DNA of 64,000 bases from a virus (lineage: Duplodnaviria > Heunggongvirae > Uroviricota > Caudoviricetes): IMG/VR virus record IMGVR_UViG_3300033143_002710. One strand, given 5' to 3'. Under the pieces are notes generated by a model. That model was not told the DNA's origin, did no database searches, and saw nothing but the letters and a program-made list of their open reading frames with translations. The position numbers were made by a program, and so were the translations under genes. This document shows, one piece after another, positions 50,577-63,720 of this stretch. Positions within the stretch are counted from its first letter, which is position 1, and every line of letters begins with the position of its first letter.

Positions 50577-50585
50577 TCCCTATTC

Positions 50586-50900: not shown

Positions 50901-50901
50901 T

Positions 50902-51117: not shown

Positions 51118-51499
51118 TTATTACTGGCATGAACAACCAGCGCCGTGCCATGCTTGCGGTCACGATAAGGCCAAGATTCTGCATATAGGCAAATCCAGTA
51201 TGGGATGGGTCTTTATGCTTCGCGTCGATCCAGAAGAGGGTCTGAACACGCTCAGAGACTGGCGAGATCGCTGGACTGAGCCCGGCTCAAAGATTTTGAG
51301 TGAGTACGGAACACTCATACAACCTTCTGGAATGAGCGAAATAATTCTTGATCGCGCAAATATGAGCGCCCCTTGGTCGGTTCAAAAACAAAAAGAAAAC
51401 GGCGCTATACAGGGTCCAAACGGTCTTTATCGTGGATTCCAAAATTTTGCGCCTATTGATGACGCCACCTATGATCTTGTTGATAAGGAATTTTTCTGA
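51107..51499 (+). CDS. hypothetical protein
   Basis: 130 aa with a CHACGH pair near the N-terminus. Confidence 0.5.
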   Translation: MGTNYYWHEQPAPCHACGHDKAKILHIGKSSMGWVFMLRVDPEEGLNTLRDWRDRWTEPGSKILSEYGTLIQPSGMSEIILDRANMSAPWSVQKQKENGAIQGPNGLYRGFQNFAPIDDATYDLVDKEFF

Positions 51500-51501
51500 C
51501 A

Positions 51502-51674
51502 TGAGAACCAAAGAAGAAGTCGAAAGTGTTAGGCTTAAAGTTAATCCATACGAGGGAAGCAAATTTCCAGGAATGACTTATGAAGAAGGTATTGAAGTTG
51601 CTTTGTCTTGGGTTTCAGGCGACACTGAAGACTTTGAGATTGAGGGAGACCCCTATTTTGACCCGGAGTACTGA
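51502..51674 (+). CDS. hypothetical small acidic protein
   Basis: ATG at 51502 directly after the upstream stop. 57 aa. Confidence 0.4.
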
Positions 51675-51675
51675 C

Positions 51676-52176
51676 ATGATAATGAGCATTAAAGGCACTA
51701 ATCTTCTAAAATTGATCGAAGAGTTTCGCGCTTATCCGTATGACGATCAAACGGGTGACGATACTGAAGTCTGGGAGCCAGGTGCCACCATTGGTTACGG
51801 CCATCTGATTAGCAAAGCTGAGTGGCCCAATTTTTGCGGCAGGCGTATCAGCACTTTTGAAGCTGATCGTATATTTGCAAAAGACCTGTTCCCTTTTGAA
51901 CTTTGCGTTAAGGATGCAATCGAAAGCTCTTTCAAGCTATTCAAAAACGAATACGACGCTTTGGTTATGCTCGCCTTCAACATCGGGAGAAGTGGCTTTG
52001 CAAGTTCGTCGGTCGTAAAGCTGATCAACGATGAACATGCGGAGACGAGTTACGACAGTTTAGAGCAGGCATGGATGGCCTGGAACAAGTCGCAGGGCAA
52101 AGTCATGCGCGGACTGATCAATCGAAGAAATGCCGAATGGCAGATATATTCCAACGGGATTTATGAACGCTGGTAA
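51676..52176 (+). CDS. endolysin, GH24 phage lysozyme (T4L/lambda R-like fold)
   Basis: EEFRAYPYDDQTGDDTEVWEPGATIGYGH has the catalytic E...D...T pattern. The C-terminus GLINRRNAEWQIY is typical of this family. Confidence 0.85.
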   Translation: MIMSIKGTNLLKLIEEFRAYPYDDQTGDDTEVWEPGATIGYGHLISKAEWPNFCGRRISTFEADRIFAKDLFPFELCVKDAIESSFKLFKNEYDALVMLAFNIGRSGFASSSVVKLINDEHAETSYDSLEQAWMAWNKSQGKVMRGLINRRNAEWQIYSNGIYERW

Positions 52177-52246
52177 GCTGCTATAATGAACACACACGTA
52201 TTCCAGTGCCATATGACGCACGATCACTAAACAAGAGGGCGGATCG

Positions 52247-52744
52247 ATGGAAGCACAGCAAACACCACTCAGAACGGCAATCATGCGCATAATGAGCGAC
52301 ATGCTTGATAATCCCTGCGAACACGGTCTGTATGATACCGGACGGTTCATGGATCGCATCGAACAACTTCTGTGCGACATGATGGCCGCACCAGAGGTTA
52401 TGCAGTTGTCTGGTTCCGAAGCAGTCTTTGGATTGCTTGCCTGGTTGACAACGAGAGACGAAACTACCGTTCTCGGTCCTCATCAGCAGGTTGACGTTAG
52501 TATTGCTACTCAATTTGTAGAGGCTAATCGTCTTGCCGAACCACGAGAGGCTTGGCATGAGTTACTGACTCACCCTAAAACTGAAGTGCCGGAAATTGCC
52601 AGTCTGTCTAGCGAAGTGGATTTTGATATCGGTAAGCCCGAATGCGGTTCTCTTCGTGCCACCTTGTTTGATTTGAACGGTAAGGTTGTCGTCACCGGTT
52701 CGCTAGAAGAAGTTATTGGCGTTCTCACGGAGAAAAAGGGGTGA
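52247..52744 (+). CDS. hypothetical protein
   Basis: 165-aa ORF. Confidence 0.5.
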   Translation: MEAQQTPLRTAIMRIMSDMLDNPCEHGLYDTGRFMDRIEQLLCDMMAAPEVMQLSGSEAVFGLLAWLTTRDETTVLGPHQQVDVSIATQFVEANRLAEPREAWHELLTHPKTEVPEIASLSSEVDFDIGKPECGSLRATLFDLNGKVVVTGSLEEVIGVLTEKKG

Positions 52745-53034
52745 TGCTTACTCTAACTCAAATTGCTACATCACTTACCGCCGTTGGCATTATCGGTGGT
52801 GGCGCTCTTACGCTCGACAGAATGCATGTTGCAACGGAAGACTTCAAAGAATACATTGAGGTGCAGCAGCAATCTGACGAAAGGGACTACGTTCTCACAC
52901 TCAAAAAGGACATTCGAGAAATCAAACTCGCGATAGCGTCGAACCCAAGTGAGGTCTATCTCATTAACGCTTTGGCCGATTCTTTGGATGATCTTTGTGA
53001 ACTTCGCCCAGACGACAGACTTTGTGAGGAATAA
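52741..53034 (+). CDS. single-TM membrane protein (possible holin/antiholin-like)
   Basis: N-terminal TM LTQIATSLTAVGIIGGGALTL followed by a charged helical region. Confidence 0.4.
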   Translation: MMLTLTQIATSLTAVGIIGGGALTLDRMHVATEDFKEYIEVQQQSDERDYVLTLKKDIREIKLAIASNPSEVYLINALADSLDDLCELRPDDRLCEE

Positions 53035-53037
53035 CCA

Positions 53038-53421
53038 ATGACGCCAGATCGTTACGATACTTTTGTGTCCGACTGTTGGATGGGCGGCGTACAACCTTTG
53101 AAAGAACAGGTTGCTGTAACCGCTCTTGGACTGGCTGGCGAATCTGCCGAGGTCATGGAAAAGGTTTTGTCTGCCGCATCAGCGTGTCTGGCTGCCGGAA
53201 ACCATGCCGAGCGAATCAAGAAGGTCACTCGCGGAGACGATCCGAAACTAAGTCATAATGTCAATGTAGGCAAAGAGCTTGGTGATATTTTGTTTTACGT
53301 ATCGAACCAGGCTCGCTTACACGGCATGACTCTTCAGGATATCATGCTGCTGAATTACGATAAGTTGTCTGGTCGGATCGAGCGTCTCGGAACTTTACGA
53401 GGTGACGGGGACAATCGATAA
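53038..53421 (+). CDS. mazG: MazG-like nucleotide pyrophosphohydrolase
   Basis: Segments GLAGESAEVMEKV and ELGDILFYV...LQDIMLLNYDKL, typical of all-alpha NTP pyrophosphatases. Confidence 0.75.
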   Translation: MTPDRYDTFVSDCWMGGVQPLKEQVAVTALGLAGESAEVMEKVLSAASACLAAGNHAERIKKVTRGDDPKLSHNVNVGKELGDILFYVSNQARLHGMTLQDIMLLNYDKLSGRIERLGTLRGDGDNR

Positions 53422-53470
53422 GGCGATCTCACTTCTACTATAATCACATTACGAAATTCAATTACGAGGG

Positions 53471-53686
53471 GTGGTCATGGGAAAGAATACGGCAAGAATC
53501 GACAACTGGTTTATAGTTGGCAATTGTCTTTGGGGCAATGTGACCGAACACAGCGTTCGACAGTTTGACCCTGACAATCTTCAGCGAACGTCCGATATCG
53601 TCAGAATTGATGAAGAGGCTGGAATTGCTGAAACTCTCAACACTCACTACACGCTCGGAAATAAACAAGAGGAACCTTTCTCATGA
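53471..53686 (+). CDS. hypothetical protein
   Basis: 71-aa ORF. Confidence 0.4.
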   Translation: MVMGKNTARIDNWFIVGNCLWGNVTEHSVRQFDPDNLQRTSDIVRIDEEAGIAETLNTHYTLGNKQEEPFS

Positions 53687-54003
53687 GAGACATTATCTTA
53701 CGCGCTGTCGAAGTAGCCAAAGGCTGGCAGTTCATACCAAGTCATTCGTTCGTCAAGATTCCTGGTCTCACCGAACCTGCCGATGTGATGCGAATCGAAT
53801 CCGTCATAATGAATGGTTTGGCGGCTCAACTCGTTTTGCAAATTGACGAGTCGGATAACTACGCCTTTCACTCAAACGATGACGGGCGATGTACCGTCAC
53901 CAATAGCGATCCGAAGAAGGATCAGCCGGAACTGTCTTCGCATCACGGAGAGTCTCGCGCTGTTAATACTCTTCATGCTATGGCTCGCGCAGGATTCATC
54001 TAA
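53683..54003 (+). CDS. hypothetical protein
   Basis: 106-aa ORF with AAGAGGAA RBS. Confidence 0.5.
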   Translation: MRDIILRAVEVAKGWQFIPSHSFVKIPGLTEPADVMRIESVIMNGLAAQLVLQIDESDNYAFHSNDDGRCTVTNSDPKKDQPELSSHHGESRAVNTLHAMARAGFI

Positions 54004-54582
54004 GTGGAAAAATCGGATTCAAAACGCGAGCGCATGGAAGAGGGCGCTCTGCTAATCACCGGCTGTCCAAGAAGCGCCACTCGATCTGTCACTAAGTATT
54101 TTGAGGATCATGGTGTAAGTCTTGGCCATGAAACTGCTGGCGAAAAGGGCACCGTTGATTGGCGACACGCTTACACGATAATGGACACGAAAAACCCGGC
54201 TTTCATTATTCAGATGACTCTCATTCGAAATCCTATCGACACTATTCGATCACTCGCGGAATTACTTACACACTGTGATCGCAGAAGTGAAACCTGGGAT
54301 TGGATACGGGCTCTTTCTACGCTTGGTAGTTGGGATGAGAAGCTGAATAATCTAGATTTTTTTGGTGCCGCCACAGACTGGTGGATAACCGTCTATGATC
54401 GTTTGATTGACTTTCCCGTATTAAAAATGGAGCATCTGCCGAAACTTCCACAGACGAATCGTCATGGGCGAATTGATCGAGGATTTGATGTCGGCGGGTT
54501 ACTTAAGGGCAATGAAGAGCTTTGGCGAGTGGCAGAAATGTACGGTTATAACCAAGAGGATTATCTCGGAGACAGTCAATGA
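54004..54582 (+). CDS. sulfotransferase-like protein (Stf0-type, PAPS-binding motifs)
   Basis: 5'-PSB-like LITGCPRSATRS and 3'-PB-like LIRNPIDTIRS. An alternative start lies at 54034. Confidence 0.55.
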   Translation: MEKSDSKRERMEEGALLITGCPRSATRSVTKYFEDHGVSLGHETAGEKGTVDWRHAYTIMDTKNPAFIIQMTLIRNPIDTIRSLAELLTHCDRRSETWDWIRALSTLGSWDEKLNNLDFFGAATDWWITVYDRLIDFPVLKMEHLPKLPQTNRHGRIDRGFDVGGLLKGNEELWRVAEMYGYNQEDYLGDSQ

Positions 54583-54956
54583 CTGACACGATCTACAGAG
54601 TTAAGATTAGGAGATACCATCTCTGTCCAATCGAAAAGTTGGAAGTTGTAAGGAGAACCGCAAAAACGGTTACTGTTATTCTCAAAGACTTCTGGCACAA
54701 AGGTAAAAACTGCGAAAGCAGATATTCATTGGAAAGCCAAGACTATCTATTTTTCGACACGCTAAAAGAAGCTGAAAATGTCGCTGAAAATATCATTACC
54801 AATCGTATGCAGGAGTCTATAACTGAAACAGAAGAATTGCGTGAACGACTCCAGGAAATATGTAAGCATGTGGCTATCAACAGTCCGTCTGATGGCAGGT
54901 GCTGTCGATGTGATTTTCGAGTGACCAATCCAGAGGATTATTGCAATGGTGGATAG
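54579..54956 (+). CDS. hypothetical protein
   Basis: 125-aa ORF. Confidence 0.45.
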   Translation: MTDTIYRVKIRRYHLCPIEKLEVVRRTAKTVTVILKDFWHKGKNCESRYSLESQDYLFFDTLKEAENVAENIITNRMQESITETEELRERLQEICKHVAINSPSDGRCCRCDFRVTNPEDYCNGG

Positions 54957-55219
54957 CTGTGAATCTCACTAACAGAAAAGGCTACTGGTTCAAATTGTTT
55001 GTTGCGTTGAGTATTTTGGTCAATGCAATATTTGGCGGTCAAATGTATGAGTCTGCTTGTGCAAAGGCGTGGCGAATGAGACATTACGGTGGATTTCGCG
55101 GACTGTGGGCTGTTATAACTATTTGGCTAATGAACTTTTTTGAAAGGGATCATTGCAGAAAAAGCGAAATTGCATACAAGAGAATTCAATCTGGACTAAA
55201 CAAGGGCAGAATCGAATGA
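54941..55219 (+). CDS. small membrane protein
   Basis: Two hydrophobic helices. Confidence 0.4.
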   Translation: MQWWIAVNLTNRKGYWFKLFVALSILVNAIFGGQMYESACAKAWRMRHYGGFRGLWAVITIWLMNFFERDHCRKSEIAYKRIQSGLNKGRIE

Positions 55220-56427
55220 TATATCATAAGGGTGAAAGAGTTCACGCGAAAATTTGGACAAACCAGGTCGAAGAGTCGGCTATGAAGCAGATCGATGATC
55301 TCTGTGGTCTGCCGTTTATTCACAAACATATAGCGGTCATGCCAGACGTTCATGCTGGTTATGGCTCGACCGTTGGCTCTGTAATCCCAACCAGAGGAGC
55401 TATCATTCCTTCTGCCGTTGGTGTCGACATTGGATGCGGAATGATGGCTATTCAGCTTGATCTTAATGCGGCCCAACTTCCGGACAGTTTGTTGGATGCC
55501 AGACTTTCTATTGAAGCCAGTGTTCCTCATGGTCGCTCCGCAAATGGAGGGCCAGGTGACAAAGGCGCTTGGGATAATTTACCGACTGATGTTGGGGATT
55601 TGTGGCGAGCCGAATTGTACGACGGTCTTATGGATATCTCTGAGCGTCATCCAAAAATTCTTAAAGGCCATGTCAACACGCATAGACATCTTGGAACTCT
55701 TGGTACGGGCAATCATTTCATCGAAGTGTGTCTTGACGAGACGGACGCCGTTTGGGTGATGCTGCACTCAGGCTCTCGTGGAATTGGAAATCGAATTGGC
55801 CAGTATTTTATCAATCTCGCCAAAGAGGATATGAGAAAGTGGTTTATCAATCTTCCAGAAAAAGACCTGTCTTATTTTCCAGAAGGCACCGATCACTTTG
55901 ATGATTATTGGAAGGCTGTATCTTGGGCGCAAGAATACGCCTCTATGAATCGTGAAATTATGATGGCTAGGACTCTCGTCGCTCTTCGTCATTCGCTGGG
56001 TTTAGGAATACACATTCAAAAGAAGGCTGTGAACTGTCATCACAACTACGTCGCGCTGGAAAATCACTTTGGTGCCAATGTATACGTTACACGCAAAGGC
56101 GCTGTTAGAGCGCGTGTGGGTGACTTGGGGATCATTCCGGGAAGCATGGGTACGCGATCATACATAGTCGAGGGACTTGGCAACAAAGATTCGTTCAATT
56201 CCTGCTCTCACGGCGCTGGTCGAATCATGAGTCGCACAAAGGCTCGAAAGATATTCACCGTTGATGATTTGGAAAAGCAGACAATTGGTGTAGAATGTAG
56301 GAAGGACTCTGATGTGATTGATGAAATCCCAGGTTCCTACAAGGACATCGACGAAGTGATGGCAAATCAGGCTGATCTCGTTAAGCCGATCCACACTCTT
56401 CGTCAGATTGTTTGTGTGAAAGGATAA
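55216..56427 (+). CDS. rtcB: RtcB RNA ligase
   Basis: MPDVHAGYG, GVDIGCGM, GTGNHFIE, HSGSRGIGN, CHHNYV and HGAGR motifs. Likely start is the ATG at 55216. Confidence 0.95.
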   Translation: MIYHKGERVHAKIWTNQVEESAMKQIDDLCGLPFIHKHIAVMPDVHAGYGSTVGSVIPTRGAIIPSAVGVDIGCGMMAIQLDLNAAQLPDSLLDARLSIEASVPHGRSANGGPGDKGAWDNLPTDVGDLWRAELYDGLMDISERHPKILKGHVNTHRHLGTLGTGNHFIEVCLDETDAVWVMLHSGSRGIGNRIGQYFINLAKEDMRKWFINLPEKDLSYFPEGTDHFDDYWKAVSWAQEYASMNREIMMARTLVALRHSLGLGIHIQKKAVNCHHNYVALENHFGANVYVTRKGAVRARVGDLGIIPGSMGTRSYIVEGLGNKDSFNSCSHGAGRIMSRTKARKIFTVDDLEKQTIGVECRKDSDVIDEIPGSYKDIDEVMANQADLVKPIHTLRQIVCVKG

Positions 56428-56502
56428 TGGCGAGTAGCTCAATGGTAGAGTGCCTGACTGTTAATCAGGGGGTTGTAGGTTCGAGTCCTACCTTGCCAGC
56501 CA
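56428..56502 (+). tRNA. tRNA-Asn (anticodon GTT), CCA encoded
   Basis: TGGCGAG TA GCTC AATGGTA GAGT G CCTGA CTGTTAA TCAGG GGGTT GTAGG TTCGAGT CCTAC CTTGCCA G CCA. Starts on the nucleotide after the rtcB stop. Confidence 0.85.
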
Positions 56503-56507
56503 GTATT

Positions 56508-56584
56508 CGGAGTGTGGCGCAGTCTGGTAGCGCACTTGCTTTGGGAGCATGGGGCCGTAGGTTCAAATCCTACCATTCCGACCA
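56508..56584 (+). tRNA. tRNA-Pro (anticodon TGG), CCA encoded
   Basis: CGGAGTG TG GCGC AGTCTGGTA GCGC A CTTGC TTTGGGA GCATG GGGCC GTAGG TTCAAAT CCTAC CATTCCG A CCA. One T-T mismatch in the anticodon stem. Confidence 0.75.
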
Positions 56585-56599
56585 ATTTGAGTCATTGAT

Positions 56600-57166
56600 A
56601 TGCAAGCCTTAGACTGGATCAATGACATTATGCGCTGGTTCGGCCAGTTTATTCCAGAGTGGGACTTGCTCGATCCGACAGAGGGCGGAGTAAAGTTCAA
56701 ACCTGGCGGTAAGATAGTCTTGCTGAAACCCGGCCATATTTATTGGTTCTGGCCTATTACGACCAATGTTTACACGATTGAGACTAAACGGCAGCCGCTA
56801 GTTATATCTCAGCGACTGACAACGGCTGATGACATTTCTGTATTGGTCGAAACCGTCATCGTATATGTGATTGATGATGTTGAGAAGGCTATCGTCGAAA
56901 CACGCGATCATGAAGATACTATTTCAGAGATCGGCGAGAAGGTCACTGTTAAGCCCGTCATGAGTAGAACTTTTGAGAATATTCGAATTGACATTGCCGA
57001 TTCGAACAAACTCAACAATGAAATCAAGTCCGGCGCTCGTTCTGAGTTGGGTGCTTACGGAGTCAAAGTTGTAGACGGTTACATATCCAGCTTTGCAGAA
57101 ACAAAAGTATTCAGCCATGACGGGTCGGGCATGGTTATAGAGGAAGACGAATATGAAGAAGAGTAA
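56600..57166 (+). CDS. SPFH (band-7/stomatin/prohibitin)-like domain protein
   Basis: The core VKFKPGGKIVLLKPGHIYWFWPITTNVYTIETKRQPLVISQRLTTADDISVLVETVIVY matches the SPFH pattern. Acidic C-terminus. Confidence 0.55.
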   Translation: MQALDWINDIMRWFGQFIPEWDLLDPTEGGVKFKPGGKIVLLKPGHIYWFWPITTNVYTIETKRQPLVISQRLTTADDISVLVETVIVYVIDDVEKAIVETRDHEDTISEIGEKVTVKPVMSRTFENIRIDIADSNKLNNEIKSGARSELGAYGVKVVDGYISSFAETKVFSHDGSGMVIEEDEYEEE

Positions 57167-57497
57167 GCCTTTTTTCACCATTGGTTTGATGATAATTCTA
57201 GGTCTGTCAATCGCAGCTACAGAGGTGTATGGCGAAGAATACTGTTATGTCCCGTATGGCGTAGGCGTCCATCCAGAGTTCGTTGCTGGAACCTCACTGG
57301 TGAAGGTGAATTGGATAGAGGGCGAGCGCGGGATGGAGGCTCAGGCTTCCTACATGTACGACGAGGAAACCAACTCCACAATATGTGTGATAACGGTTCG
57401 TATGCCCGATCAGGTTATTGGCGATCCGGATATGGATTCGTTAGGTCATGAGCTTTTACATTGCTTGACCGGTGACTTTCACGAAGGGGAACACTGA
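57153..57497 (+). CDS. small secreted protein with HExxH motif
   Basis: Signal peptide MKKSKPFFTIGLMIILGLSIAA and a C-terminal HELLHCLTGDFHEGEH. Confidence 0.45.
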   Translation: MKKSKPFFTIGLMIILGLSIAATEVYGEEYCYVPYGVGVHPEFVAGTSLVKVNWIEGERGMEAQASYMYDEETNSTICVITVRMPDQVIGDPDMDSLGHELLHCLTGDFHEGEH

Positions 57498-57748
57498 TGA
57501 AACCTGTTAAATTCCCAGAGGCTAATCGTGAACTTACGAGACCTGATGGAATGACGGAAGAAGAATGTTCGTCGTTATTTGTTTGGTCGGACGATGAACG
57601 CTGTTTAAGTCTTTGGAGACCCACCTGGCGCGAACGATTGAGATTTCTTTTTTACGGAGAGCTATGGCTTTTTGTTTTATCCGGCGATACACAACCGCCA
57701 GTGTCTTTACAGTTTCACTACCCTTTTAAGGTGAAAAATAATGGCTAA
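57497..57748 (+). CDS. hypothetical protein
   Basis: 83-aa ORF. The stop/start reads ATGA. Confidence 0.4.
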   Translation: MKPVKFPEANRELTRPDGMTEEECSSLFVWSDDERCLSLWRPTWRERLRFLFYGELWLFVLSGDTQPPVSLQFHYPFKVKNNG

Positions 57749-57944
57749 GGTTCGATTCGAAATGGAAGTTGAGGTCATGCGACTCTACACGGTGCCTATT
57801 ATGGCAGAAGATTTAGAGGGTGCAATCGTACAGGCCAAGAAGATAAACACGACTGTTCAAATAGAGGCTTTGGGTGAGCCTCAGGATCACGAGATCAATT
57901 TGGTGGGCATCTCACGCCAGGTCGGTCGGAAGATGTACCAATGA
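57741..57944 (+). CDS. hypothetical protein
   Basis: 67-aa ORF. Confidence 0.4.
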   Translation: MAKVRFEMEVEVMRLYTVPIMAEDLEGAIVQAKKINTTVQIEALGEPQDHEINLVGISRQVGRKMYQ

Positions 57945-58255
57945 AAATGGCGGCCGTTCTTCTGTCTTTATTTTTGGTCGTAGGATGCGCCAGCGAAAAA
58001 GTCAGACCTTTTGGGTCACTTGGTCTCGGATATCAAGCTGAAGGCTCGACGGATCATGTTTTACAGCGTGATCGTGAATGGCAGTGCAAAAGATGGCAGC
58101 AAGCCTGGATCGAAATAGGGGCAGAATTTAGAAACGGATGCTCAATTTCGCTGCTGCACCAATCATGGTATTTATGTGGATCGCCGTTCAATGAGCGACC
58201 AGAAGTTGACATGAATACCTTTGTTGGCAAATGCAAGATTGGAGGGTTCAAATAA
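57941..58255 (+). CDS. lipoprotein (possible superinfection-exclusion type)
   Basis: Lipobox LFLVVGC after a signal peptide. Confidence 0.5.
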   Translation: MKMAAVLLSLFLVVGCASEKVRPFGSLGLGYQAEGSTDHVLQRDREWQCKRWQQAWIEIGAEFRNGCSISLLHQSWYLCGSPFNERPEVDMNTFVGKCKIGGFK

Positions 58256-58262
58256 TAGTCTC

Positions 58263-58700
58263 ATGCCAATAGCCAATTACACAACTTCGATTAAAACCGA
58301 AAAAACTGTTGGTGAAATACAGAAGATGCTTGCTACCGCAGGAGCGGCACAAGTGCTATTTGATTTCGACGGGCCGAATGTATCAGCAATTTCATTTCGT
58401 TTGCTTTACAATGGCACGATGGTCTCTTTTAGACTACCTGCAAATGTTGATAATATTTACGTGGTGCTTCAGCGCGACGACGGTGTTCCTCGCAAACTGA
58501 AAACTACGGAGCAAGCTACTCGAGTAGCCTGGCGAATCATCAAAGACTGGCTACGGGCGCAACTTGCTATCGTTGAAGCAGAACAAGCTGAGATGATCGA
58601 AGTGTTTTTGCCTTACGCTCAGAATCCAACCACTGGTCAAACCTTATTTCGTGAATTTGAACAAGTCGGCTTTAAGTTGCTGGCAGCACCCGATTCGTAA
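58263..58700 (+). CDS. hypothetical protein
   Basis: ATG at 58263 (MPIANY...). Confidence 0.45.
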   Translation: MPIANYTTSIKTEKTVGEIQKMLATAGAAQVLFDFDGPNVSAISFRLLYNGTMVSFRLPANVDNIYVVLQRDDGVPRKLKTTEQATRVAWRIIKDWLRAQLAIVEAEQAEMIEVFLPYAQNPTTGQTLFREFEQVGFKLLAAPDS

Positions 58701-58712
58701 GAGGAGAGAAAA

Positions 58713-59300
58713 ATGAAGTCGTACATGAAAGCTCTATATATCGCCAGTTGGATTCCCGTTGTCCTGCTGCACACGTTCCCACTTGTAATGTTGTGGCCGT
58801 TCTTCGATCTGTCAGTGTGGCAGGCGTTCCTTCCTATTGGACTTATGCCGCTTGGTCTTGTCATGGTTCCGTTCGCACTGTCTCGCGATAGCTGGCCGAA
58901 ATATCTTTGGCTCTGGTGTAATGACGAAGAGGGCTGTCCTGATTGGTGGCTTAACGTTGCGGATGGTAAAGGTGGTTTCATTGGCAAGTTTCCGCGTTTT
59001 TGGTGGTACGCCGTGCGAAACCCGGTCAATAACTTTCGATTTATATTCAAGGATCGCACAGCAGAACTCGATACCAACTGGTTCGACCCTAAACCTATGG
59101 AAGCCGCAAATTTGCTGGAAGCTGGCCAAGCTATGGCGTATCGATGGGCATACGCTGGCCCGTTCGCTGGCTATCGTCAGGTCTGGCTCAACAGCAGCGA
59201 CAAGTATTCTGAATTCTGGATCGGCTGGAAAGTGAGTTCGATTGTTTCAGGTCTGGGATTCACGTTCCAGTATCGTCGCAAAAGGCAGATCGGTCAGTGA
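58713..59300 (+). CDS. Trp-rich integral membrane protein
   Basis: Two N-terminal TM helices and a W-rich body. Confidence 0.5.
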   Translation: MKSYMKALYIASWIPVVLLHTFPLVMLWPFFDLSVWQAFLPIGLMPLGLVMVPFALSRDSWPKYLWLWCNDEEGCPDWWLNVADGKGGFIGKFPRFWWYAVRNPVNNFRFIFKDRTAELDTNWFDPKPMEAANLLEAGQAMAYRWAYAGPFAGYRQVWLNSSDKYSEFWIGWKVSSIVSGLGFTFQYRRKRQIGQ

Positions 59301-59302
59301 TA

Positions 59303-59437
59303 ATGTCCATCATTGGTCATCTGCTTGCGGTCTTGGTAATCTACGTTATCGGCTATGCCATTGGGTGGGCACATGCATTCAGTTACTCGGATCATCTGAG
59401 CAATTTGCGCGATCCAGAGGCTGGTGATCGGTGGTGA
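59303..59437 (+). CDS. small membrane protein (44 aa, below the track size cut-off)
   Basis: Manual translation MSIIGHLLAVLVIYVIGYAIGWAHAFSYSDHLSNLRDPEAGDRW. Confidence 0.35.
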   Translation: MSIIGHLLAVLVIYVIGYAIGWAHAFSYSDHLSNLRDPEAGDRW

Positions 59438-59814
59438 CTACAACGCTCGAGGGCCTTTTGAGAATGACCGTTCCAATCGGCCCTGGTTGTGTTGCGCCTG
59501 AAGACACTCAGATGACACCCGACTTTCGTATTGCTGTCCAGGAAATTGATAGTGGAGGGGTGCGGGTCATCATTCACTCTTCTGGCCACGATAGCGACAC
59601 GCTGGACTTTATTGTCATTGGCAATAAACTGTTGACCCTGGAGCAGCACGAACGTAGGAAAATACTCATAGAGAGCAGGGTCATTTTGCAAAGCGCCCTG
59701 TCGATTGCTTCTCGAGAAGGCAAAGACACCAATTGGTCTGCTTTCGGGAATCGATTGAGAGTAACCTTGGAATCTCAAAGTAAACAGTTAAAGGAGATAT
59801 TGCCAGATGGCTAG
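59431..59814 (+). CDS. hypothetical protein
   Basis: 127-aa ORF, preferred over the antisense ORF 59392..59778. Confidence 0.45.
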   Translation: MVTTTLEGLLRMTVPIGPGCVAPEDTQMTPDFRIAVQEIDSGGVRVIIHSSGHDSDTLDFIVIGNKLLTLEQHERRKILIESRVILQSALSIASREGKDTNWSAFGNRLRVTLESQSKQLKEILPDG

Positions 59815-60010
59815 ATCATTCGAACTTGACGACGAGGCTCATGCTTTGGCGGAGCGATTCATAGTCGATCACACCTGCTCTGTTGATTATGCCGGGGCCA
59901 TTGGTGGTAAAATCTCCTATGAATTCACAGAAACAAGTATGGGCCTTATAACCGAGGTAAAATGCAGTTGTGGTGATAGCCAGAACTTGACGGATTACGG
60001 TCAATGGTAG
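59807..60010 (+). CDS. hypothetical small Cys-containing protein
   Basis: 67-aa ORF. Confidence 0.4.
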   Translation: MARSFELDDEAHALAERFIVDHTCSVDYAGAIGGKISYEFTETSMGLITEVKCSCGDSQNLTDYGQW

Positions 60011-60426
60011 ACTCAATGAAAATCGTCATGGAGTTCCCGCCCAACATTGAGGACATACGAAAAGTTCTCCCGTTGAAGGGTGGTGAAATCTTTGCTTGGA
60101 ATGACACAATCTACAGCCCCATGACCTCTAAATTACCACCGTGGATGATCGTACATGAAGAGGTCCATCGAAAGCAACAGGCTGGAAATCCCGAAGGCTG
60201 GTGGGCCAAATATCTGATAGACCCAGCGTTTCGCTTTGAGCAGGAACTGGAAGCGCATCAGGCGGAGTATTTAGCCTTTTGTTCGATAGAGACTGATCGT
60301 AATCGTAAGCGGGTATTTCTGAAAGGAATTGCACGAAGACTGTCGGCACCAATGTACGGTCGAGTAGCGTCTTTTGAAAAATCCAAAAGACTCATCAAAA
60401 AACCCAAAAAAGGACCAGCATCATGA
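60004..60426 (+). CDS. hypothetical protein with HEEVH motif (possible zincin-like)
   Basis: WMIVHEEVHRKQ. The motif alone is weak evidence. Confidence 0.45.
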   Translation: MVDSMKIVMEFPPNIEDIRKVLPLKGGEIFAWNDTIYSPMTSKLPPWMIVHEEVHRKQQAGNPEGWWAKYLIDPAFRFEQELEAHQAEYLAFCSIETDRNRKRVFLKGIARRLSAPMYGRVASFEKSKRLIKKPKKGPAS

Positions 60427-60668
60427 AAAAGAGTAAACGTAATTTCACCGAGAAAAGCATCCCCGAAGGTATAACTGCCTGGTATCATCACATTCGAGAT
60501 AAAAATCGAGTCATCTTCGAAACCACCTGTGATCTGATCGACAGTGTTTCCGGCGAAACCCTGGTAACAGGTCATGCTCGAGTGTCACCCAGAGATAACC
60601 CTTCCAAAAAGATCGGTCGAGCAATCTCTCTTGGTAGGGCGCTCAAACTGTATCACCTGGGGAACTGA
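60423..60668 (+). CDS. hypothetical basic protein
   Basis: 81-aa ORF. Confidence 0.4.
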   Translation: MKKSKRNFTEKSIPEGITAWYHHIRDKNRVIFETTCDLIDSVSGETLVTGHARVSPRDNPSKKIGRAISLGRALKLYHLGN

Positions 60669-60669
60669 C

Positions 60670-60822
60670 ATGAGCAACACGGTTGTTTGTTTATTGGTGT
60701 TGGTACTTCTGATTCGGCTCGACACAGCTTACATCAAGGAAGATGGCCCCGCTGCATGGTGGGTTTTCTCGTTTGCTCTGTTAATTGCGGTGATTACGGA
60801 TTTATTCAGGATGGCTATATGA
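60670..60822 (+). CDS. small two-TM membrane protein
   Basis: ATG at 60670. MSNTVVCLLVLVLLIRL...WWVFSFALLIAVITDLF. Confidence 0.4.
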   Translation: MSNTVVCLLVLVLLIRLDTAYIKEDGPAAWWVFSFALLIAVITDLFRMAI

Positions 60823-61058
60823 GCAAATTCATCAAATTCAGCAGACCCAGGAAGTCGAAAAGCAAAAAGACTCAAATATGGCGGGTGCTAACCAACGACG
60901 ACAGTCTGCTAGGTGAGATTCGCTGGTTTAGTCGCTGGCGCAGATACGCTTTCCATCCTGACGTTTACACGGTGTTCGAGCATGACTGTCTGCGAAAGAT
61001 TGCAGACTTCTGTGAGGACGAATCAAAGAAACTTCGCAAGACTTGGAGAAAAAAGTAA
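60819..61058 (+). CDS. hypothetical basic protein
   Basis: ATGA overlap with the preceding gene. MSKFIKFSRPRKSKSKK... Confidence 0.45.
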   Translation: MSKFIKFSRPRKSKSKKTQIWRVLTNDDSLLGEIRWFSRWRRYAFHPDVYTVFEHDCLRKIADFCEDESKKLRKTWRKK

Positions 61059-61279
61059 TGGACGAAAACGAACGAATGCTCGTACAAACAATGTCGGCAG
61101 TATCCCATCTCATCGAATTCCTTGATACGGGAGAACCCGTCGACCTGGCCACCGCCTTTGCAATGTTGAAAACCCCGGACATGACCAAATGGCTGGAATT
61201 CAATTCAGTGATGTTACCGCTTCGCCGCGATAGAAAGTCTTTGCTCAAGCGGCTGGCTGAAAGCAATAGTGTCGAATGA
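61043..61279 (+). CDS. hypothetical protein
   Basis: 78-aa ORF. Confidence 0.4.
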   Translation: MEKKVMDENERMLVQTMSAVSHLIEFLDTGEPVDLATAFAMLKTPDMTKWLEFNSVMLPLRRDRKSLLKRLAESNSVE

Positions 61280-61464
61280 ATAATCGAATAATTGAACAGG
61301 GCGTTAAAAATCTAAAGGAATTCGGCTATCCAGGTGTGAACGCTGATAATATTCTAACCGACATGATCTATAGCGAATTCTTCAGGTCAATGTTGAAAGA
61401 CAATCTCGGCCACTCAGCTAAGGTGGATATAGATATCAATGAGATTCTGGCGGCGTTGCCGTAG
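61276..61464 (+). CDS. hypothetical protein
   Basis: 62-aa ORF. Confidence 0.4.
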   Translation: MNNRIIEQGVKNLKEFGYPGVNADNILTDMIYSEFFRSMLKDNLGHSAKVDIDINEILAALP

Positions 61465-61479
61465 CGTCCGGAAGTATAA

Positions 61480-62229
61480 GTGCTTGGCGAACGTGTAATT
61501 TCCTGGTTTTCCTGTGGCGCAGCCAGTGCGGTAGCATCCAAACTCGCCATACAAGAATATGACGCCGTTGAAGTGATCTATCAGGAGACTCACTCGGAAC
61601 ACCCAGACAACGAACGATTTCTGGTCGATTGTGAACAATGGTTCAAACAGCCTATTATTCGACTGGCATCTGATCGTTATCATGATATCTGGGATGTATT
61701 CGAAAGGCGTCGATATCTTTCAGGCACTAATGGCGCTCTTTGCACTTCCGAACTCAAACGCATGGTTGCCGAGAAATACATCAGACACGGCATAGACCTC
61801 GAGATATTTGGCTATACGGTTGAGGAGCGAGATCGAGTCATTCGTTTTTGCAAAAACAACCCAGAAAGACGAATACGTGCCGTTCTTCTGGAACGAGGTT
61901 TAACCAAAGAAGACTGTCTTGGAATAGTCAATAAGGCAAATATTGAAATCCCCGTCATGTATAGGCTGGGCTATAATCACAATAATTGCATAGGATGCGT
62001 AAAAGCGGGATTCGGTTACTGGAACAAAATCAGAGTAGATTTCCCCGACACGTTTGATCGTATGGCCAGGTTGGAGCGCAAACTGAATATGGCCATCTGT
62101 AAATCTGACAGAAAGGGTGACAAGAGCAAGCCTGTATTTCTAGATGAACTAGACCCCAATAGAGGGCATCATCCTACAGAGCCAAAGATAAGCTGCGGCA
62201 TCATGTGTGAGTCAGAATTCGTTGAGTAG
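61480..62229 (+). CDS. PAPS reductase-family (PP-loop ATP pyrophosphatase, CysH/DndC-like) protein
   Basis: N-terminal PP-loop variant ISWFSCGAASAV and downstream CIGC. GTG start. Confidence 0.65.
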   Translation: MLGERVISWFSCGAASAVASKLAIQEYDAVEVIYQETHSEHPDNERFLVDCEQWFKQPIIRLASDRYHDIWDVFERRRYLSGTNGALCTSELKRMVAEKYIRHGIDLEIFGYTVEERDRVIRFCKNNPERRIRAVLLERGLTKEDCLGIVNKANIEIPVMYRLGYNHNNCIGCVKAGFGYWNKIRVDFPDTFDRMARLERKLNMAICKSDRKGDKSKPVFLDELDPNRGHHPTEPKISCGIMCESEFVE

Positions 62230-62404
62230 AAATGGAAGGTAGTATAAGGACTATTTTCTCATAGGTGCGGTAGTATAAGAGTGGTGCCAAAAGTTGCTCG
62301 ATGTATTGTAGGCATGGTGTAGCCGATGATGGCCACGCTCTAAGATACACGACATTGGCATGGTTTTTGTTGCGAATCATTCTCATTTGAATAATCTCCA
62401 GCGC

Positions 62405-62445
62405 ATGGGCAAAAAAAATCAGCGCCCAGAATTGGACGCTGATTT
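62405..62445 (-). terminator. rho-independent terminator (effectively bidirectional) between convergent gene blocks
   Basis: TCAGCG-12nt-CGCTGA stem. The minus strand follows with TTTTTTTT, the plus strand with TTTCGTT. Confidence 0.7.
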
Positions 62446-62463
62446 CGTTCGCTTTGGATCAGT

Positions 62464-63237
62464 CTAGAATCCAGCGTCACCAAAGAGCGTGACACGGAGC
62501 GCCAAATATACATCGCTCTCGCGATCCACGTATATTTTGCGCTCGTTTCCAGCATTGGTTCCAGCGCCCAAGACTTGCAACAGATTCGCACTTGTCGTTC
62601 GTTGGGTGCTTGCTGTAGCTGCGCTCTTGTACAGTTGGGCTTCCATGAGTCGAGACTTAAGATCGACGTCACAGTCAACTGTCAGAGCGTCTAGACGAGT
62701 CTTGTGCGACTGGTACACGCTATAAATAAGCTCATTGTCTACAGTGTCGACGTTTAAGACTTCGCAAGCGACGATGATCGAGACAAGATACTTATTTTTA
62801 TTCCATGCTGTACGTGGGTCGCCACTGAGAAGCCAACCAGCGAGTGCCAGTAACTTATCTTGTGCTTTGAGTGCCAAGTAGTCATTGCCACTGCGCTGCG
62901 CGCCAGTCTTAGAAGCGAATCCCCAGACGCGTGAGACTGCTTCAGATGGCTTTGAGAAGCCAAAAGACTGAAACATAGCCAAGAGCATGGCCATGCACTG
63001 GCGACTGTTCCACATGCTTACAGTGCGTTTGACGTCGCTTCCAGTTGGTGTGGGATGATTTTCAACCAGTGCAGCTAAGTGCTTAGCTGCACTCTTGATG
63101 GCGCTCGTGATATGACTCTTTGAGACTTGAGCGATGGACGCCAGTGCCACTGCGCCCATGCGCTCTTTGACATGCTTCGAATCAATAGACGAAACGTCTG
63201 TGATTCGTGGTGCGTTAAATTTCGATTGGTTAGTCAT
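62464..63237 (-). CDS. hypothetical protein with HTH-like segment (possible regulator or replication-initiator-like)
   Basis: 257-aa lone minus-strand gene. LASIAQVSKSHITSAIK is HTH-like. It lies adjacent to an iteron/palindrome-rich non-coding region. Confidence 0.5.
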   Translation of the reverse strand: MTNQSKFNAPRITDVSSIDSKHVKERMGAVALASIAQVSKSHITSAIKSAAKHLAALVENHPTPTGSDVKRTVSMWNSRQCMAMLLAMFQSFGFSKPSEAVSRVWGFASKTGAQRSGNDYLALKAQDKLLALAGWLLSGDPRTAWNKNKYLVSIIVACEVLNVDTVDNELIYSVYQSHKTRLDALTVDCDVDLKSRLMEAQLYKSAATASTQRTTSANLLQVLGAGTNAGNERKIYVDRESDVYLALRVTLFGDAGF

Positions 63238-63379
63238 GATTTTTTAACTCCAGAATTATGCTGTTATCGAACCAGCGACTCTCAGAGAACACGCGCCACA
63301 AGCCAATGCAATCGCGATTCTCTTATACGCTGGAAAAATCTCATTCGAATGGGATTATTTTCGCTCCCAAGTGATTGAT

Positions 63380-63720
63380 TCTATTAAGAAAAGAAAAATA
63401 AATGAAAATAATCAAAAATAATTCAAAAACGCCAAAAAATGGCCCAAAAATCACCGATCTGCGCACTTCTAAATGAGGGTAATTCGCATCAAGAATCGTG
63501 CCAAGTCCGACCAGTCAAAAGTTGGCACGATTCTTGATGAGAATGATCCGCATCGGCCCGACCAGCGAGCCAGGCTCGGATGAGAATCATTTCCCTCCTA
63601 GGACGCGAATCATCCGTATCCGCATCGGGCCGAGCCGCGCCTAGGAAACGGCCAAATGAGAAGGATTCTCATTTGCGTCCTGCCCCCGTTCCTATAGTAA
63701 AGGGAGCCTTTCCCCTATAG
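63380..63720. repeat. non-coding A-rich tract plus iteron-like direct repeats and palindromes
   Basis: A-rich run 63380..63450. A perfect 17-bp inverted repeat ATCAAGAATCGTGCCAA/TTGGCACGATTCTTGAT at 63487..63537. Direct repeats CCGACCAG x3, TCCGCATCGG x2, ATGAGAA x3. Palindrome ATGAGAAggaTTCTCAT. Three CCTAGG sites. Confidence 0.7.

What the first reader, a model, noticed from the sequence alone, without database searches (positions are those of the whole stretch)
54004..62229. Two sulfur/PAPS-chemistry enzymes in the early module: a Stf0-type sulfotransferase-like protein and a PAPS-reductase-family PP-loop protein
54004..54582 carries sulfotransferase PAPS-binding motifs (GCPRSATRS 5'-PSB-like, LIRNPIDTIRS 3'-PB-like). 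61480..62229 is a CysH/DndC-family PP-loop protein (SCGAAS variant, CIGC). Phage sulfotransferases are rare. Together with the PP-loop enzyme they could modify DNA, a nucleotide, a glycan receptor, or a small-molecule signal. DndC-like enzymes are the ATP-pyrophosphatase of phosphorothioation. The ParB-like proteins on the other side of the genome are reminiscent of DndB/DpdB-type partners.
Basis: partly seen in the sequence, partly recalled or inferred. Interest (0 to 1): 0.6.

Follow-up and report, generated by a model that had tools for sequence, protein, structure and literature searches.

The report
Phage mini-sulfotransferase and separate sulfur-relay enzyme
Both genes are real, but they are two unrelated accessory genes of an uncultivated phage: a rare, very small sulfotransferase in its own conserved three-gene cassette, and a common phage enzyme (PptA type) that docks onto the host's sulfur-donating enzyme IscS and probably thiolates nucleic acid to escape host defences.

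Summary
Both ORFs and all four quoted motifs are at the stated coordinates.

**61480..62229 (249 aa).** It is 46% identical (E 1e-67) to PptA of Vibrio phage VH-5. PDB entry 21fy holds PptA together with E. coli cysteine desulfurase IscS. The protein is therefore probably an IscS-fed, SspD/DndC-like sulfur transferase and does not use PAPS. The family is very large (over 7,600 homologs).

**No link between the two.** Relatives keep the sulfotransferase cassette and the ParB genes but lack the PptA gene, which lies in a 2-kb variable island. The ParB proteins hit no DndB or DpdB model.

The parts
54004..54582 (+). ORF-A: a 192-aa 'mini' sulfotransferase. It has a 5'-PSB loop (G20-x-P-R23-S24-x-T26), a probable base at H42-E43, and a 3'-PB motif (R75-x-P77...S83).
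53683..54003 (+). Upstream 106-aa gene of unknown function. Its stop codon abuts the ORF-A start. It is the most constant neighbour of the sulfotransferase.
   Evidence: Homolog lies directly upstream of the sulfotransferase gene in 8 of 9 lineages. No hit in Pfam, PHROGs, PADLOC or PDB.
54579..54956 (+). Downstream 125-aa gene, overlapping the ORF-A stop by 4 nt. Its C-terminus is a C-x-H...C-x-x-C zinc-ribbon-like motif followed by a conserved N-P-(E/D)-D-Y-x-(N/D)-G-G tail. This protein is the candidate acceptor or partner of the sulfotransferase.
   Evidence: Alignment. The zinc-ribbon plus tail is fused to the sulfotransferase in P0021/L002-4, and the tail alone in P0015. NP[ED]DY occurs only once per locus, always here. 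No family hit.
61480..62229 (+). ORF-B: a PptA-type PAPS-reductase-fold PP-loop protein. It has the S11-C-G-A-A-S16 motif and conserved C88, C170-x-x-C173, C239 and C243.
   Evidence: PDB 21fy_C PptA, E 1.3e-67. phrog_424, E 1.5e-45. PADLOC SspD, E 1.7e-13. AF2 pLDDT 88, with Foldseek hits to CysH, APS reductase, LarE and TtuA. IscS is in the same PDB entry.
60423..62454 (+). Variable island of about 2 kb at the end of the rightward early operon. It carries the PptA-type gene and four small ORFs.
   Evidence: In relative L006, the homolog of 60004..60426 is followed almost directly by the homolog of 62464..63237. DNA similarity resumes only at about 62454.
58713..59300 (+). DUF7338-like membrane protein. 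Distant homologs lie immediately downstream of the sulfotransferase gene in two more remote lineages.
   Evidence: Pfam DUF7338, E 1.6e-4, below the curated cut-off. L008 versus L017 neighbours, E 5e-23; window protein versus L008 neighbour, E 3e-5.
47049..48736 (-). Two ParB_N-domain proteins flanking a DUF7695 protein. They are listed here only to record that they are not part of either feature.
   Evidence: Pfam and PHROGs ParB hits. No DndB or DpdB hit in PADLOC. The cassette is conserved in relatives lacking the PptA-type gene.

Best explanation
The finding covers two independent accessory genes in the rightward early operon of an uncultivated phage (contigs of 100-108 kb). They do not form a pathway.

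**1. ORF-A (54004..54582): a minimal PAPS-type sulfotransferase**
- Shown: the fold and both cofactor-binding motifs.
- Shown: an invariant H42-E43 pair at the position of the TPST2 catalytic Glu.
- Shown: a translationally coupled cassette, 106-aa gene, sulfotransferase, 125-aa gene.
- Inferred: it draws PAPS from the host, since no PAPS-synthesis gene was seen among the window proteins scanned. It then sulfates a hydroxyl on a macromolecular acceptor.
- Leading candidate acceptor: the tyrosine in the conserved acidic C-terminal N-P-(E/D)-D-Y tail of the downstream zinc-ribbon protein. Two lineages have fused that tail to the enzyme.

**2. ORF-B (61480..62229): an ortholog of phage protein PptA**
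- Shown: full-length homology to PptA.
- Shown: a PAPS-reductase/PP-loop fold with eight conserved cysteines.
- Shown: PptA shares PDB entry 21fy with E. coli cysteine desulfurase IscS.
- Shown: the gene lies in a variable island.
- Inferred: it takes persulfide sulfur from host IscS and inserts it into an activated nucleic-acid substrate. The most likely substrate is the phage DNA backbone (phosphorothioation, as SspD/DndC do), which would serve as an anti-restriction device.
For: **ORF-A**
- Motif residues are invariant in 22 homologs and at least 90% conserved in 87 remote relatives.
- 33 of 87 relatives hit Sulfotransfer_3 (best E 2.5e-7). Seven hit Sulfotransfer_1 and three hit Sulfotransfer_4.
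- hhalign places G41-H42-E43-T44 on TPST2 G-E-E99-T. The TPST2 sequence used was verified against 3ap3.
- The cassette is conserved: the upstream gene in 8 of 9 lineages, and the downstream gene or its tail in 6 of 9.
- NP[ED]DY is unique to that position in every locus that has it.
- Fusions P0021 and P0015 retain the tail.

**ORF-B**
- 21fy_C PptA, E 1.3e-67 over residues 4-246. PptA is a protein of Vibrio phage VH-5.
- The E. coli IscS sequence is found in entries 1p3w and 21fy.
- PADLOC SspD, E 1.7e-13.
- Foldseek top hits are CysH, APS reductase, LarE and TtuA.
- A phage PAPS-reductase domain fused to Dam, carried on a two-gene P5a_red-specific segment, gave escape from Dnd in Vibrio phages (preprint 10.1101/2021.05.05.442762; cited as such in PMC13551039).

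**Independence of the two genes**
- There is no ORF-B homolog in L002 or L006, which span from the sulfotransferase to the convergent 257-aa gene.
Against: **ORF-A**
- The window protein itself matches no Pfam, PHROGs, NCBIfam, PADLOC or PDB sequence model.
- The model is only of moderate confidence (pLDDT 76.6, with the N-terminal 60 residues weak).
- The TPST2 alignment is local: 30 columns, probability 39%.
- The acceptor is not established. Three distant lineages (L008, L017, L023) lack the downstream protein and its tail. Two of them have a DUF7338-like membrane protein there instead.

**ORF-B**
- No paper describing PptA was found, so the meaning of the IscS complex is inferred. It could reflect sulfur relay or sequestration.
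- The PP-loop lacks the Asp of the canonical SGGxDS motif.
- Known phosphorothioation systems need ATPase and DNA-binding partners (PMC12914056). None is nearby.

**Independence**
- A second, unrelated phage lineage (L021/L022) also carries both a PptA-type gene and a different sulfotransferase. A loose ecological or functional link cannot be fully excluded.
Confidence: 0.62

Rival explanations
1. One reading: the sulfotransferase-like protein and the PP-loop protein cooperate, with ParB-like partners, in one sulfur- or PAPS-based modification of DNA, a nucleotide or a glycan.
For: - Both genes lie in the same rightward operon.
- An unrelated 40-kb phage lineage also carries a PptA-type gene (72-73% identical) and a sulfotransferase.
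Against: - The two genes are 7 kb apart, with RtcB, tRNAs and about 15 other ORFs between them.
- The PptA-type gene is missing from both relatives that span the region, while the sulfotransferase cassette and the ParB cassette are kept.
- In L021/L022 the sulfotransferase belongs to another family. It sits in the tail module next to a depolymerase-like tailspike, not next to the PptA-type gene.
- The ParB proteins hit no DndB or DpdB model.
- PptA's solved partner is IscS, not a PAPS enzyme.
Confidence: 0.08
2. ORF-A sulfates a non-protein acceptor rather than a tyrosine. Candidates are an envelope glycan or lipid-linked precursor (superinfection exclusion or receptor masking), a nucleotide, or another small molecule.
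For: - The broader family includes members fused to glycosyltransferase domains, GT92 and Glyco_trans_1_2.
- In two distant lineages the next gene is a DUF7338-like membrane protein.
- Glu-base sulfotransferases also include the heparan-sulfate enzymes (general knowledge).
Against: - There is no glycosyltransferase, flippase or polysaccharide gene in the cassette.
- The closest-family fusions retain a peptide tail, not a glycan-handling domain.
Confidence: 0.3
3. ORF-B thiolates RNA, such as tRNA, instead of DNA. Alternatively it acts by sequestering IscS and so starving host sulfur-dependent systems.
For: - Foldseek scores for the tRNA thiolase TtuA and for LarE are as good as those for CysH.
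- The phage invests in tRNA biology, with RtcB and six ARAGORN tRNA calls (two of them without a standard anticodon) in the window.
- A co-structure with IscS is compatible with inhibition.
Against: - The only defence-system model hit is SspD, a DNA phosphorothioation enzyme.
- The only experimental precedent for a phage PAPS-reductase domain is escape from Dnd.
- Homologs occur in small phages with no annotated tRNA or RtcB gene in the regions examined, such as VH-5 and LESphi4.
- Eight conserved cysteines and a conserved nucleotide loop argue for catalysis rather than mere binding.
Confidence: 0.25
4. ORF-B is an ordinary auxiliary metabolic cysH: an assimilatory PAPS or APS reductase that boosts host sulfite production.
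For: - PHROGs and many genome annotations name the family 'PAPS reductase'.
- The fold is closest to CysH and APS reductase.
- A C-terminal S-C239-G resembles the E-C-G-L-H catalytic tail of CysH (memory).
Against: - The Pfam PAPS_reduct hit is below the curated cut-off (18.2 versus 22.5 bits) and covers only residues 8-58.
- There is no NCBIfam CysH hit.
- Identity to CysH structures is only 12-18%.
- The solved homolog is bound to IscS, which has no role in PAPS reduction.
Confidence: 0.05
5. ORF-A is not a sulfotransferase. It would instead be another P-loop-type nucleotide-binding protein, such as a small kinase or a PAP/PAPS-binding sponge.
For: - There is no direct sequence-model hit for the window protein.
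- AAA_18 is weakly hit by 4 of 22 members.
Against: - The loop is G-x-P-R-S-x-T, without the Walker-A Lys.
- A sulfotransferase-specific 3'-PB motif (R-x7-S) is invariant.
Confidence: 0.08

Closest known systems
PptA of Vibrio phage vB_VhaP_VH-5 (QGH73774.1; PDB 21fy, solved with E. coli IscS)
   Same: 46% identity over nearly the full length, E 1.3e-67. The two share the S-C-G-A-x-S loop, N-N-C-x-G-C-V-K, and the C-terminal Cys pair. Both are stand-alone proteins of about 250 aa in a lytic phage.
   Different: The phage type differs: an Autographiviridae phage of 42 kb versus a siphovirus-like phage of 100 kb or more. The genomic position also differs: after the RNA polymerase versus at the end of an early operon. 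PptA's function has not been read from a paper, and IscS binding by the window protein is only inferred.
SspD / DndC (PP-loop ATP pyrophosphatases of DNA phosphorothioation) and BrxP of BREX type 4
   Same: Same PAPS-reductase-type domain (PADLOC SspD, E 1.7e-13). Sulfur comes from a cysteine desulfurase: DndA, IscS or SspA (PMC10853773, PMC12914056; for PptA).
   Different: There is no hit to a DndC model. The loop is S-C-G-A-A-S rather than the canonical PP-loop S-G-G-x-D-S (motif recalled, not checked here for DndC/SspD). The protein is roughly half the size of DndC (from memory). No DndD/DndE or SspB/SspC partner genes are present. It is encoded by a phage, not by a defence island.
Phage PAPS-reductase::Dam fusion that gives escape from Dnd (Vibrio crassostreae podoviruses; Piel et al., preprint 10.1101/2021.05.05.442762)
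   Same: A phage-borne PAPS-reductase-family domain located in a variable, exchangeable region. An anti-defence role was shown genetically.
   Different: That protein is a 479-aa fusion with a methyltransferase and was transferred together with a second gene. It was not among the tblastn hits of ORF-B. The related Vibrio phage hits are stand-alone proteins of about 290 aa at 37% identity.
Tyrosylprotein sulfotransferases (human TPST1/2) and, by analogy, Xanthomonas RaxST with its adjacent substrate gene raxX
   Different: ORF-A is about 100 residues shorter and lacks the region between the two PAPS motifs that forms the TPST peptide cleft. Sequence similarity is confined to 30 columns. No sulfation has been shown. 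RaxST was not compared here.
Pfam Sulfotransfer_3 (PF13469) and other annotated phage or giant-virus sulfotransferases
   Same: Remote relatives of ORF-A hit this model (33 of 87). The weak top BFVD structural hits are viral sulfotransferases, including one from Synechococcus phage S-SCSM1.
   Different: The window protein itself is below detection by every model. There is no significant BFVD match. There is no homolog in 50,697 phage records and none in PHROGs.

Membership tests
PAPS-dependent sulfotransferase superfamily | 5'-phosphosulfate-binding loop (P-K/R-x-G-T/S-T) after the first beta strand | tested here: met
   L17-I-T-G20-C-P-R23-S24-A-T26. G20, P22, R23 and S24 are invariant in 22 homologs. 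G20, R23, S24, G25 and T26 are at least 90% conserved in 87 relatives.
PAPS-dependent sulfotransferase superfamily | 3'-phosphate-binding motif (R-x7-S) | tested here: met
   R75-N-P-I-D-T-I-R-S83. R75, P77 and S83 are invariant or nearly invariant.
PAPS-dependent sulfotransferase superfamily | Sulfotransferase fold | tested here: met
PAPS-dependent sulfotransferase superfamily | Significant match to a curated sulfotransferase sequence model | tested here: inconclusive
   The window protein hits 0 families. Close homologs give a best E of 0.0011. Among remote relatives found by profile search, 33 of 87 hit Sulfotransfer_3, best E 2.5e-7. The link is transitive only.
PAPS-dependent sulfotransferase superfamily | Catalytic base (His or Glu) positioned after the PSB loop | tested here: inconclusive
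   H42 and E43 are invariant or at least 90% conserved. hhalign aligns E43 with TPST2 E99, but over only 30 columns at probability 39%. The role of E99 is taken from memory of the TPST2 literature.
PAPS-dependent sulfotransferase superfamily | Transfer of sulfate from PAPS to an acceptor | not testable with these tools
   Needs biochemistry.
Stf0-type sulfotransferase (trehalose 2-sulfotransferase) | Specific similarity to Stf0 in sequence or structure | tested here: not met
PptA family (phage; PDB 21fy) | Full-length homology with conserved loop and cysteines | tested here: met
   E 1.3e-67 over residues 4-246 versus 26-264 of 270. Invariant S11, G13, A14, A15, S16, C88, C170, C173, C239 and C243.
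PptA family (phage; PDB 21fy) | Complex with cysteine desulfurase IscS | not testable with these tools
   Shown only for the VH-5 protein, through shared PDB entry 21fy.
DndC / SspD phosphorothioation enzymes | PAPS-reductase-type PP-loop domain | tested here: met
   PADLOC SspD, E 1.7e-13, residues 15-202 against profile positions 11-202 of 277. No DndC model is hit at E up to 1.
DndC / SspD phosphorothioation enzymes | Canonical S-G-G-x-D-S ATP-pyrophosphatase loop | tested here: not met
   The sequence reads S-C-G-A-A-S. The Asp position is an invariant Ala.
DndC / SspD phosphorothioation enzymes | Operon partners (DndD/DndE or SspB/SspC ATPase and DNA-binding or nicking proteins) | tested here: not met
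   Neighbouring ORFs hit no such Pfam model, and PADLOC scans of ten other window proteins hit no Dnd or Ssp component. The four small ORFs next to ORF-B were scanned against Pfam only. The gene stands alone in other phages too.
Assimilatory PAPS/APS reductase (CysH) | Match to the curated CysH / PAPS_reduct models above threshold | tested here: not met
   PF01507 scores 18.2 bits against a cut-off of 22.5, over residues 8-58 only. There is no CysH model among the NCBIfam hits.
DndB / DpdB-type ParB partners (claimed for 47049..48736) | Similarity to DndB/DpdB and co-inheritance with the PP-loop gene | tested here: not met
   PADLOC gives only the ParB-like N-terminal part of a type II methyltransferase model. 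The cassette is present in all relatives, including those without the PptA-type gene.

The most novel reading that the evidence does not exclude
ORF-A would be a phage-encoded protein-tyrosine sulfotransferase. Its substrate would be the C-terminal N-P-(E/D)-D-Y tail of the zinc-ribbon protein encoded immediately downstream, and in some lineages its own fused tail. That would be, to my knowledge, the first tyrosine-sulfation system found in a bacterial virus. It would also be a second bacterial-world example after RaxST/RaxX, made by an enzyme about 100 residues smaller than any known TPST.
Probability: 0.2. Interest if true: 0.8.

Novelty: new variant of a known kind. Interest (0 to 1): 0.42.

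Why it matters
**The sulfotransferase.** Sulfation is almost unexplored in phage biology.
- A 190-aa enzyme that keeps only the PAPS-binding core would define the minimal sulfotransferase.
- Its fixed partnership with two small unknown proteins offers a directly testable enzyme-substrate pair.
- If the acidic Tyr tail is the acceptor, this would extend protein tyrosine sulfation to phages.

**The PptA-type gene.** It belongs to one of the commonest phage genes annotated as 'PAPS reductase' (over 7,600 homologs), which virome studies often count as a sulfur-metabolism auxiliary gene.
- The link to IscS found here argues that such calls are wrong.
- These genes are more likely sulfur-relay enzymes used for nucleic-acid modification or counter-defence.

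**For this window specifically.** The practical message is that the two genes should be annotated and studied separately.

Tried and rejected
**Direct searches with ORF-A that found nothing**
- Pfam, PHROGs, NCBIfam and PADLOC.
- PDB by sequence and by profile.
- tblastn against 50,697 phage records.
- IMG/VR pattern scan.

**Literature search for 'PptA'**
- Five searches, plus searches on NinC, IscS and Dnd terms, found no paper on the phage protein.
- Entry 21fy is newer than the Foldseek PDB library, so its title could not be read.
- The content of the entry was inferred by searching IscS.

**Other dead ends**
- Neighbour proteins up106 and down125 gave no Pfam, PHROGs, PADLOC or PDB-profile hit.
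- The promoter and terminator scan of 53000..63400 was not above shuffled expectation.
- DndB/DpdB identity of the ParB proteins was rejected.
- The Stf0 assignment was rejected.

**Second-lineage co-occurrence**
- L021/L022 carry both a PptA-type gene and a sulfotransferase. I considered this as support for a link between the two families.
- I judged it weak. That sulfotransferase is a canonical Sulfotransfer_1 unrelated to ORF-A, and it sits in the tail module beside a depolymerase-like tailspike. It too is absent from the phage records.

**Tail enrichment**
- [DE][DE]Y occurs in the sulfotransferase's own tail in 6 of 22 members of the close family and 0 of 86 in the broad family. It is lineage-specific, not a family trait.

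Full report
**1. Observation**

Both ORFs are present exactly as described: 54004..54582 + (192 aa, called ORF-A here) and 61480..62229 + (249 aa, called ORF-B). The four quoted motifs read G20-C-P-R-S-A-T-R-S28 and L73-I-R-N-P-I-D-T-I-R-S83 in ORF-A. In ORF-B they read S11-C-G-A-A-S16 and C170-I-G-C173.

The window is part of an uncultivated phage.
- Identical copies of both proteins lie on JGI contigs of 100-108 kb.
- The window encodes portal, terminase, tape-measure, ligase, primase and DnaB-type helicase proteins.
- ARAGORN calls six tRNA genes, two of them without a standard anticodon.
- The 10-kb stretch searched (53000..63000) has no near DNA relative among 50,697 phage records.

The region 48750..62229 is a single rightward gene block. 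It also holds a lysozyme, MazG, RtcB, two tRNAs and an SPFH/Band-7 protein.

**2. ORF-A is a sulfotransferase-fold protein, but not an Stf0 type**

No curated library names the protein directly: Pfam, PHROGs, NCBIfam, PADLOC and PDB sequences all give nothing. No phage record encodes a relative.

The large protein collection holds 22 homologs (41-99% identity), all unnamed and all from metagenomes. In their alignment G20, P22, R23, S24, H42, R75, P77, T80 and S83 are invariant, and E43 is nearly invariant.

Three lines of evidence place the family among sulfotransferases.
- **Profile search.** A search of 1.84 billion representatives finds 303 relatives, mostly 170-230 aa.
- **Pfam bridge.** Of 87 relatives scanned, 33 hit Sulfotransfer_3 (best E 2.5e-7), 7 hit Sulfotransfer_1 and 3 hit Sulfotransfer_4. 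Across these 87, R75 and P77 are invariant, and G20, R23, S24, G25, T26, H42, E43 and S83 are at least 90% conserved.

hhalign against human TPST2 gives a 30-column local alignment. My typed TPST2 sequence was verified as identical to 3ap3. The alignment lays G-C-P-R-S-A-T...L-G-H-E-T on G-V-P-R-S-G-T-T...C-G-E-E-T. That puts E43 on TPST2 E99, which I recall from the TPST2 structure paper as the catalytic base.

The R-x7-S spacing of the 3'-phosphate motif is also the same in both proteins. The two PAPS motifs are only 52 residues apart in ORF-A, against 105 in TPST2. This is a stripped-down enzyme. I therefore accept 'sulfotransferase-like' and reject 'Stf0-type'.

**3. ORF-A sits in its own conserved cassette**

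I collected related contigs. Across nine lineages:
- The 106-aa upstream gene (53683..54003, whose stop abuts the ORF-A start) is present in eight.
- The 125-aa downstream gene (54579..54956, with a 4-nt overlap) or its C-terminus is present in six.

The downstream protein ends in a C-x-H...C-x-x-C zinc-ribbon-like motif followed by N-P-(E/D)-D-Y-x-(N/D)-G-G. N-P-[ED]-D-Y occurs exactly once in each locus that has it, always at this position.

Two lineages have fused this element to the enzyme.
- P0021 (on three contigs from different samples) carries the zinc ribbon plus tail.
- P0015 ends in ...N-A-E-D-Y-C-N-G-G.

Six of the 22 close-family enzymes, these two fusions among them, have [DE][DE]Y within their last 15 residues, against 0 of 86 in the broad family.

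An acidic D/E-D-Y motif is the classical context for tyrosine O-sulfation. The one known bacterial tyrosine sulfotransferase, RaxST, is encoded next to its substrate gene (both points from memory). That makes Tyr121 of the downstream protein the best candidate acceptor. This is inference only.

Three distant lineages lack the tail. In two of them the next gene is a DUF7338-like membrane protein, related to window 58713..59300. Some broad-family members are fused to glycosyltransferase domains. A glycan or lipid acceptor therefore remains a serious rival.

**4. ORF-B is a PptA-type sulfur-relay enzyme**

ORF-B matches the following.
- phrog_424 'PAPS reductase', E 1.5e-45.
- PADLOC SspD, E 1.7e-13.
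- Pfam PAPS_reduct, only weakly and below the curated cut-off.
- PDB chain 21fy_C, named 'PptA', E 1.3e-67 over almost the full length.

Reconstructing the PptA sequence from that alignment and searching the phage records identifies it as QGH73774.1 of Vibrio phage vB_VhaP_VH-5. This is an Autographiviridae phage, and the gene follows the RNA polymerase gene.

I found no paper on this protein, and 21fy post-dates the Foldseek PDB library. Because DndC and SspD receive sulfur from a cysteine desulfurase, I searched E. coli IscS against the PDB. Its exact 404-aa sequence occurs in just two entries, 1p3w and 21fy. PptA was therefore solved together with IscS.

Other properties of ORF-B:
- Its model (pLDDT 88) is closest to CysH, APS reductase, LarE and TtuA.
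- Six cysteines are invariant (C51, C88, C170, C173, C239, C243) and two are nearly invariant (C12, C146).
- The family is huge, with 7,672 proteins at E up to 1e-10.
- It occurs as a stand-alone gene in many unrelated phages: 75 records, with varied neighbours.

There is a genetic precedent. A segment of two P5a_red-specific genes, one of them a PAPS-reductase-domain::Dam fusion, let Vibrio phages escape Dnd (cited).

My reading is that ORF-B takes persulfide sulfur from host IscS and thiolates an activated nucleic-acid substrate, most likely the phage DNA backbone, as a counter-defence. Steps shown are the homology, the fold, the conserved cysteines and the IscS co-structure of the homolog. 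Steps inferred are IscS use by the window protein, the substrate and the biological role.

Points against are the loop lacking the Asp of S-G-G-x-D-S, and the absence of DndD/E- or SspB/C-like partners. Rivals are RNA thiolation and IscS sequestration. An ordinary cysH role is unlikely.

**5. The two genes are not a pair, and the ParB proteins are not partners**

- Contigs L002 and L006 span from the ParB cassette to the convergent 257-aa gene. They contain the sulfotransferase cassette but no ORF-B homolog.
- Against L006, the stretch 60423..62454 is a variable island.
- The ParB_N, DUF7695, ParB_N and ABC-ATPase-like cassette is present in every relative whose contig reaches that far.
- The ParB proteins hit no DndB or DpdB model.

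One observation points the other way. The closest ORF-B homologs (72-73% identical) lie in an unrelated 40-kb phage lineage that also encodes a sulfotransferase. However, that enzyme is a canonical Sulfotransfer_1 with no similarity to ORF-A. It sits in the tail module next to a Pel9A/chondroitinase-B-like tailspike. I regard this as ecological coincidence and have recorded it as unexplained.

**6. Novelty and verdict**

- ORF-B is a new member of a known, very common and currently studied family.
- ORF-A belongs to a known enzyme superfamily but to an undescribed mini-sulfotransferase branch. That branch has a phage-specific three-gene cassette and a fused acidic Tyr tail.
- Overall rating: new variant of a known kind, with moderate interest.
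- The most novel reading still open is a phage tyrosine-sulfation system, at a probability of about 0.2.

Noticed in passing
window 55153..56584 (+): The RtcB RNA ligase gene (Pfam E 1e-126) is followed immediately by tRNA-Asn(GTT) and tRNA-Pro(TGG). RtcB also lies close to the sulfotransferase cassette in relatives. This looks like a tRNA-repair or replacement module directed against anticodon nucleases.
   Followed up: partly
window 1869..1946 (-) and 7511..7585 (-): ARAGORN reports two tRNA-like genes with non-standard anticodon loops: a 4-base 'tata' and a 2-base 'gt'. The second lies next to normal tRNA-Ile and tRNA-Thr genes. They could be frameshift-suppressor-like, degenerate or decoy tRNAs.
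   Followed up: no
window 45150..48736 (-): A conserved leftward cassette diverges from the helicase gene. It holds ParB_N protein, DUF7695 protein, a second ParB_N protein, a 214-aa ABC/SMC-like ATPase (PADLOC mad3/mad8-like, E 1e-16), a 90-aa ORF and a 300-aa protein (phrog_886, 'ABC transporter ATP-binding subunit'). It is present in all relatives whose contig reaches that far. Function unknown.
   Followed up: partly
window 58713..59300 (+); L008 8648..9256; L017 6561..7235: A DUF7338-like membrane protein. In two distant lineages its homolog is the gene immediately after the sulfotransferase, replacing the zinc-ribbon protein. It may be an alternative partner or target of the enzyme.
   Followed up: partly
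L021 8904..11658 and L022 10092..12895: Unrelated 40-kb phage contigs carry a canonical Sulfotransfer_1 gene (282-289 aa) directly upstream of a 633-651-aa ORF, which in L021 carries Pel9A-like beta-helix / chondroitinase-B Pfam hits, in the tail module. They also carry a PptA-type gene 72-73% identical to the window's. That sulfotransferase has no match in 50,697 phage records.
   Followed up: partly
window 56600..57166 (+): An SPFH/Band-7 domain protein (Pfam E 5e-13), conserved in every related phage contig, usually just after RtcB or the sulfotransferase cassette. It is unusual for a phage early region.
   Followed up: no
window 13415..20803 (-): A very long ORF (2,462 aa, TTG start) lies downstream, on the - strand, of the tape-measure gene (22132..25497). 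It is probably a giant tail fibre or host-interaction protein. It was not analysed.
   Followed up: no
window 53038..53421 (+): A MazG-type nucleotide pyrophosphohydrolase lies about 260 nt upstream of the sulfotransferase cassette, with a 71-aa ORF (53471..53686) in between. It is retained next to the cassette in the distant lineages L008 and L023.
   Followed up: no
window ~48000: GC skew changes sign at about 48 kb, coinciding with the divergent transcription point between the ParB cassette (-) and the helicase-led early block (+). This could be a replication origin or simply strand-biased coding.
   Followed up: no
L013 (Pseudomonas phage LESphi4) 3980..4756: In this Mu-like Casadabanvirus the PptA-type gene, annotated 'FAD synthetase-related enzyme NinC', sits between a DNA-binding protein gene and the terminase large subunit gene. 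This hints that some family members act at or near DNA packaging.
   Followed up: no
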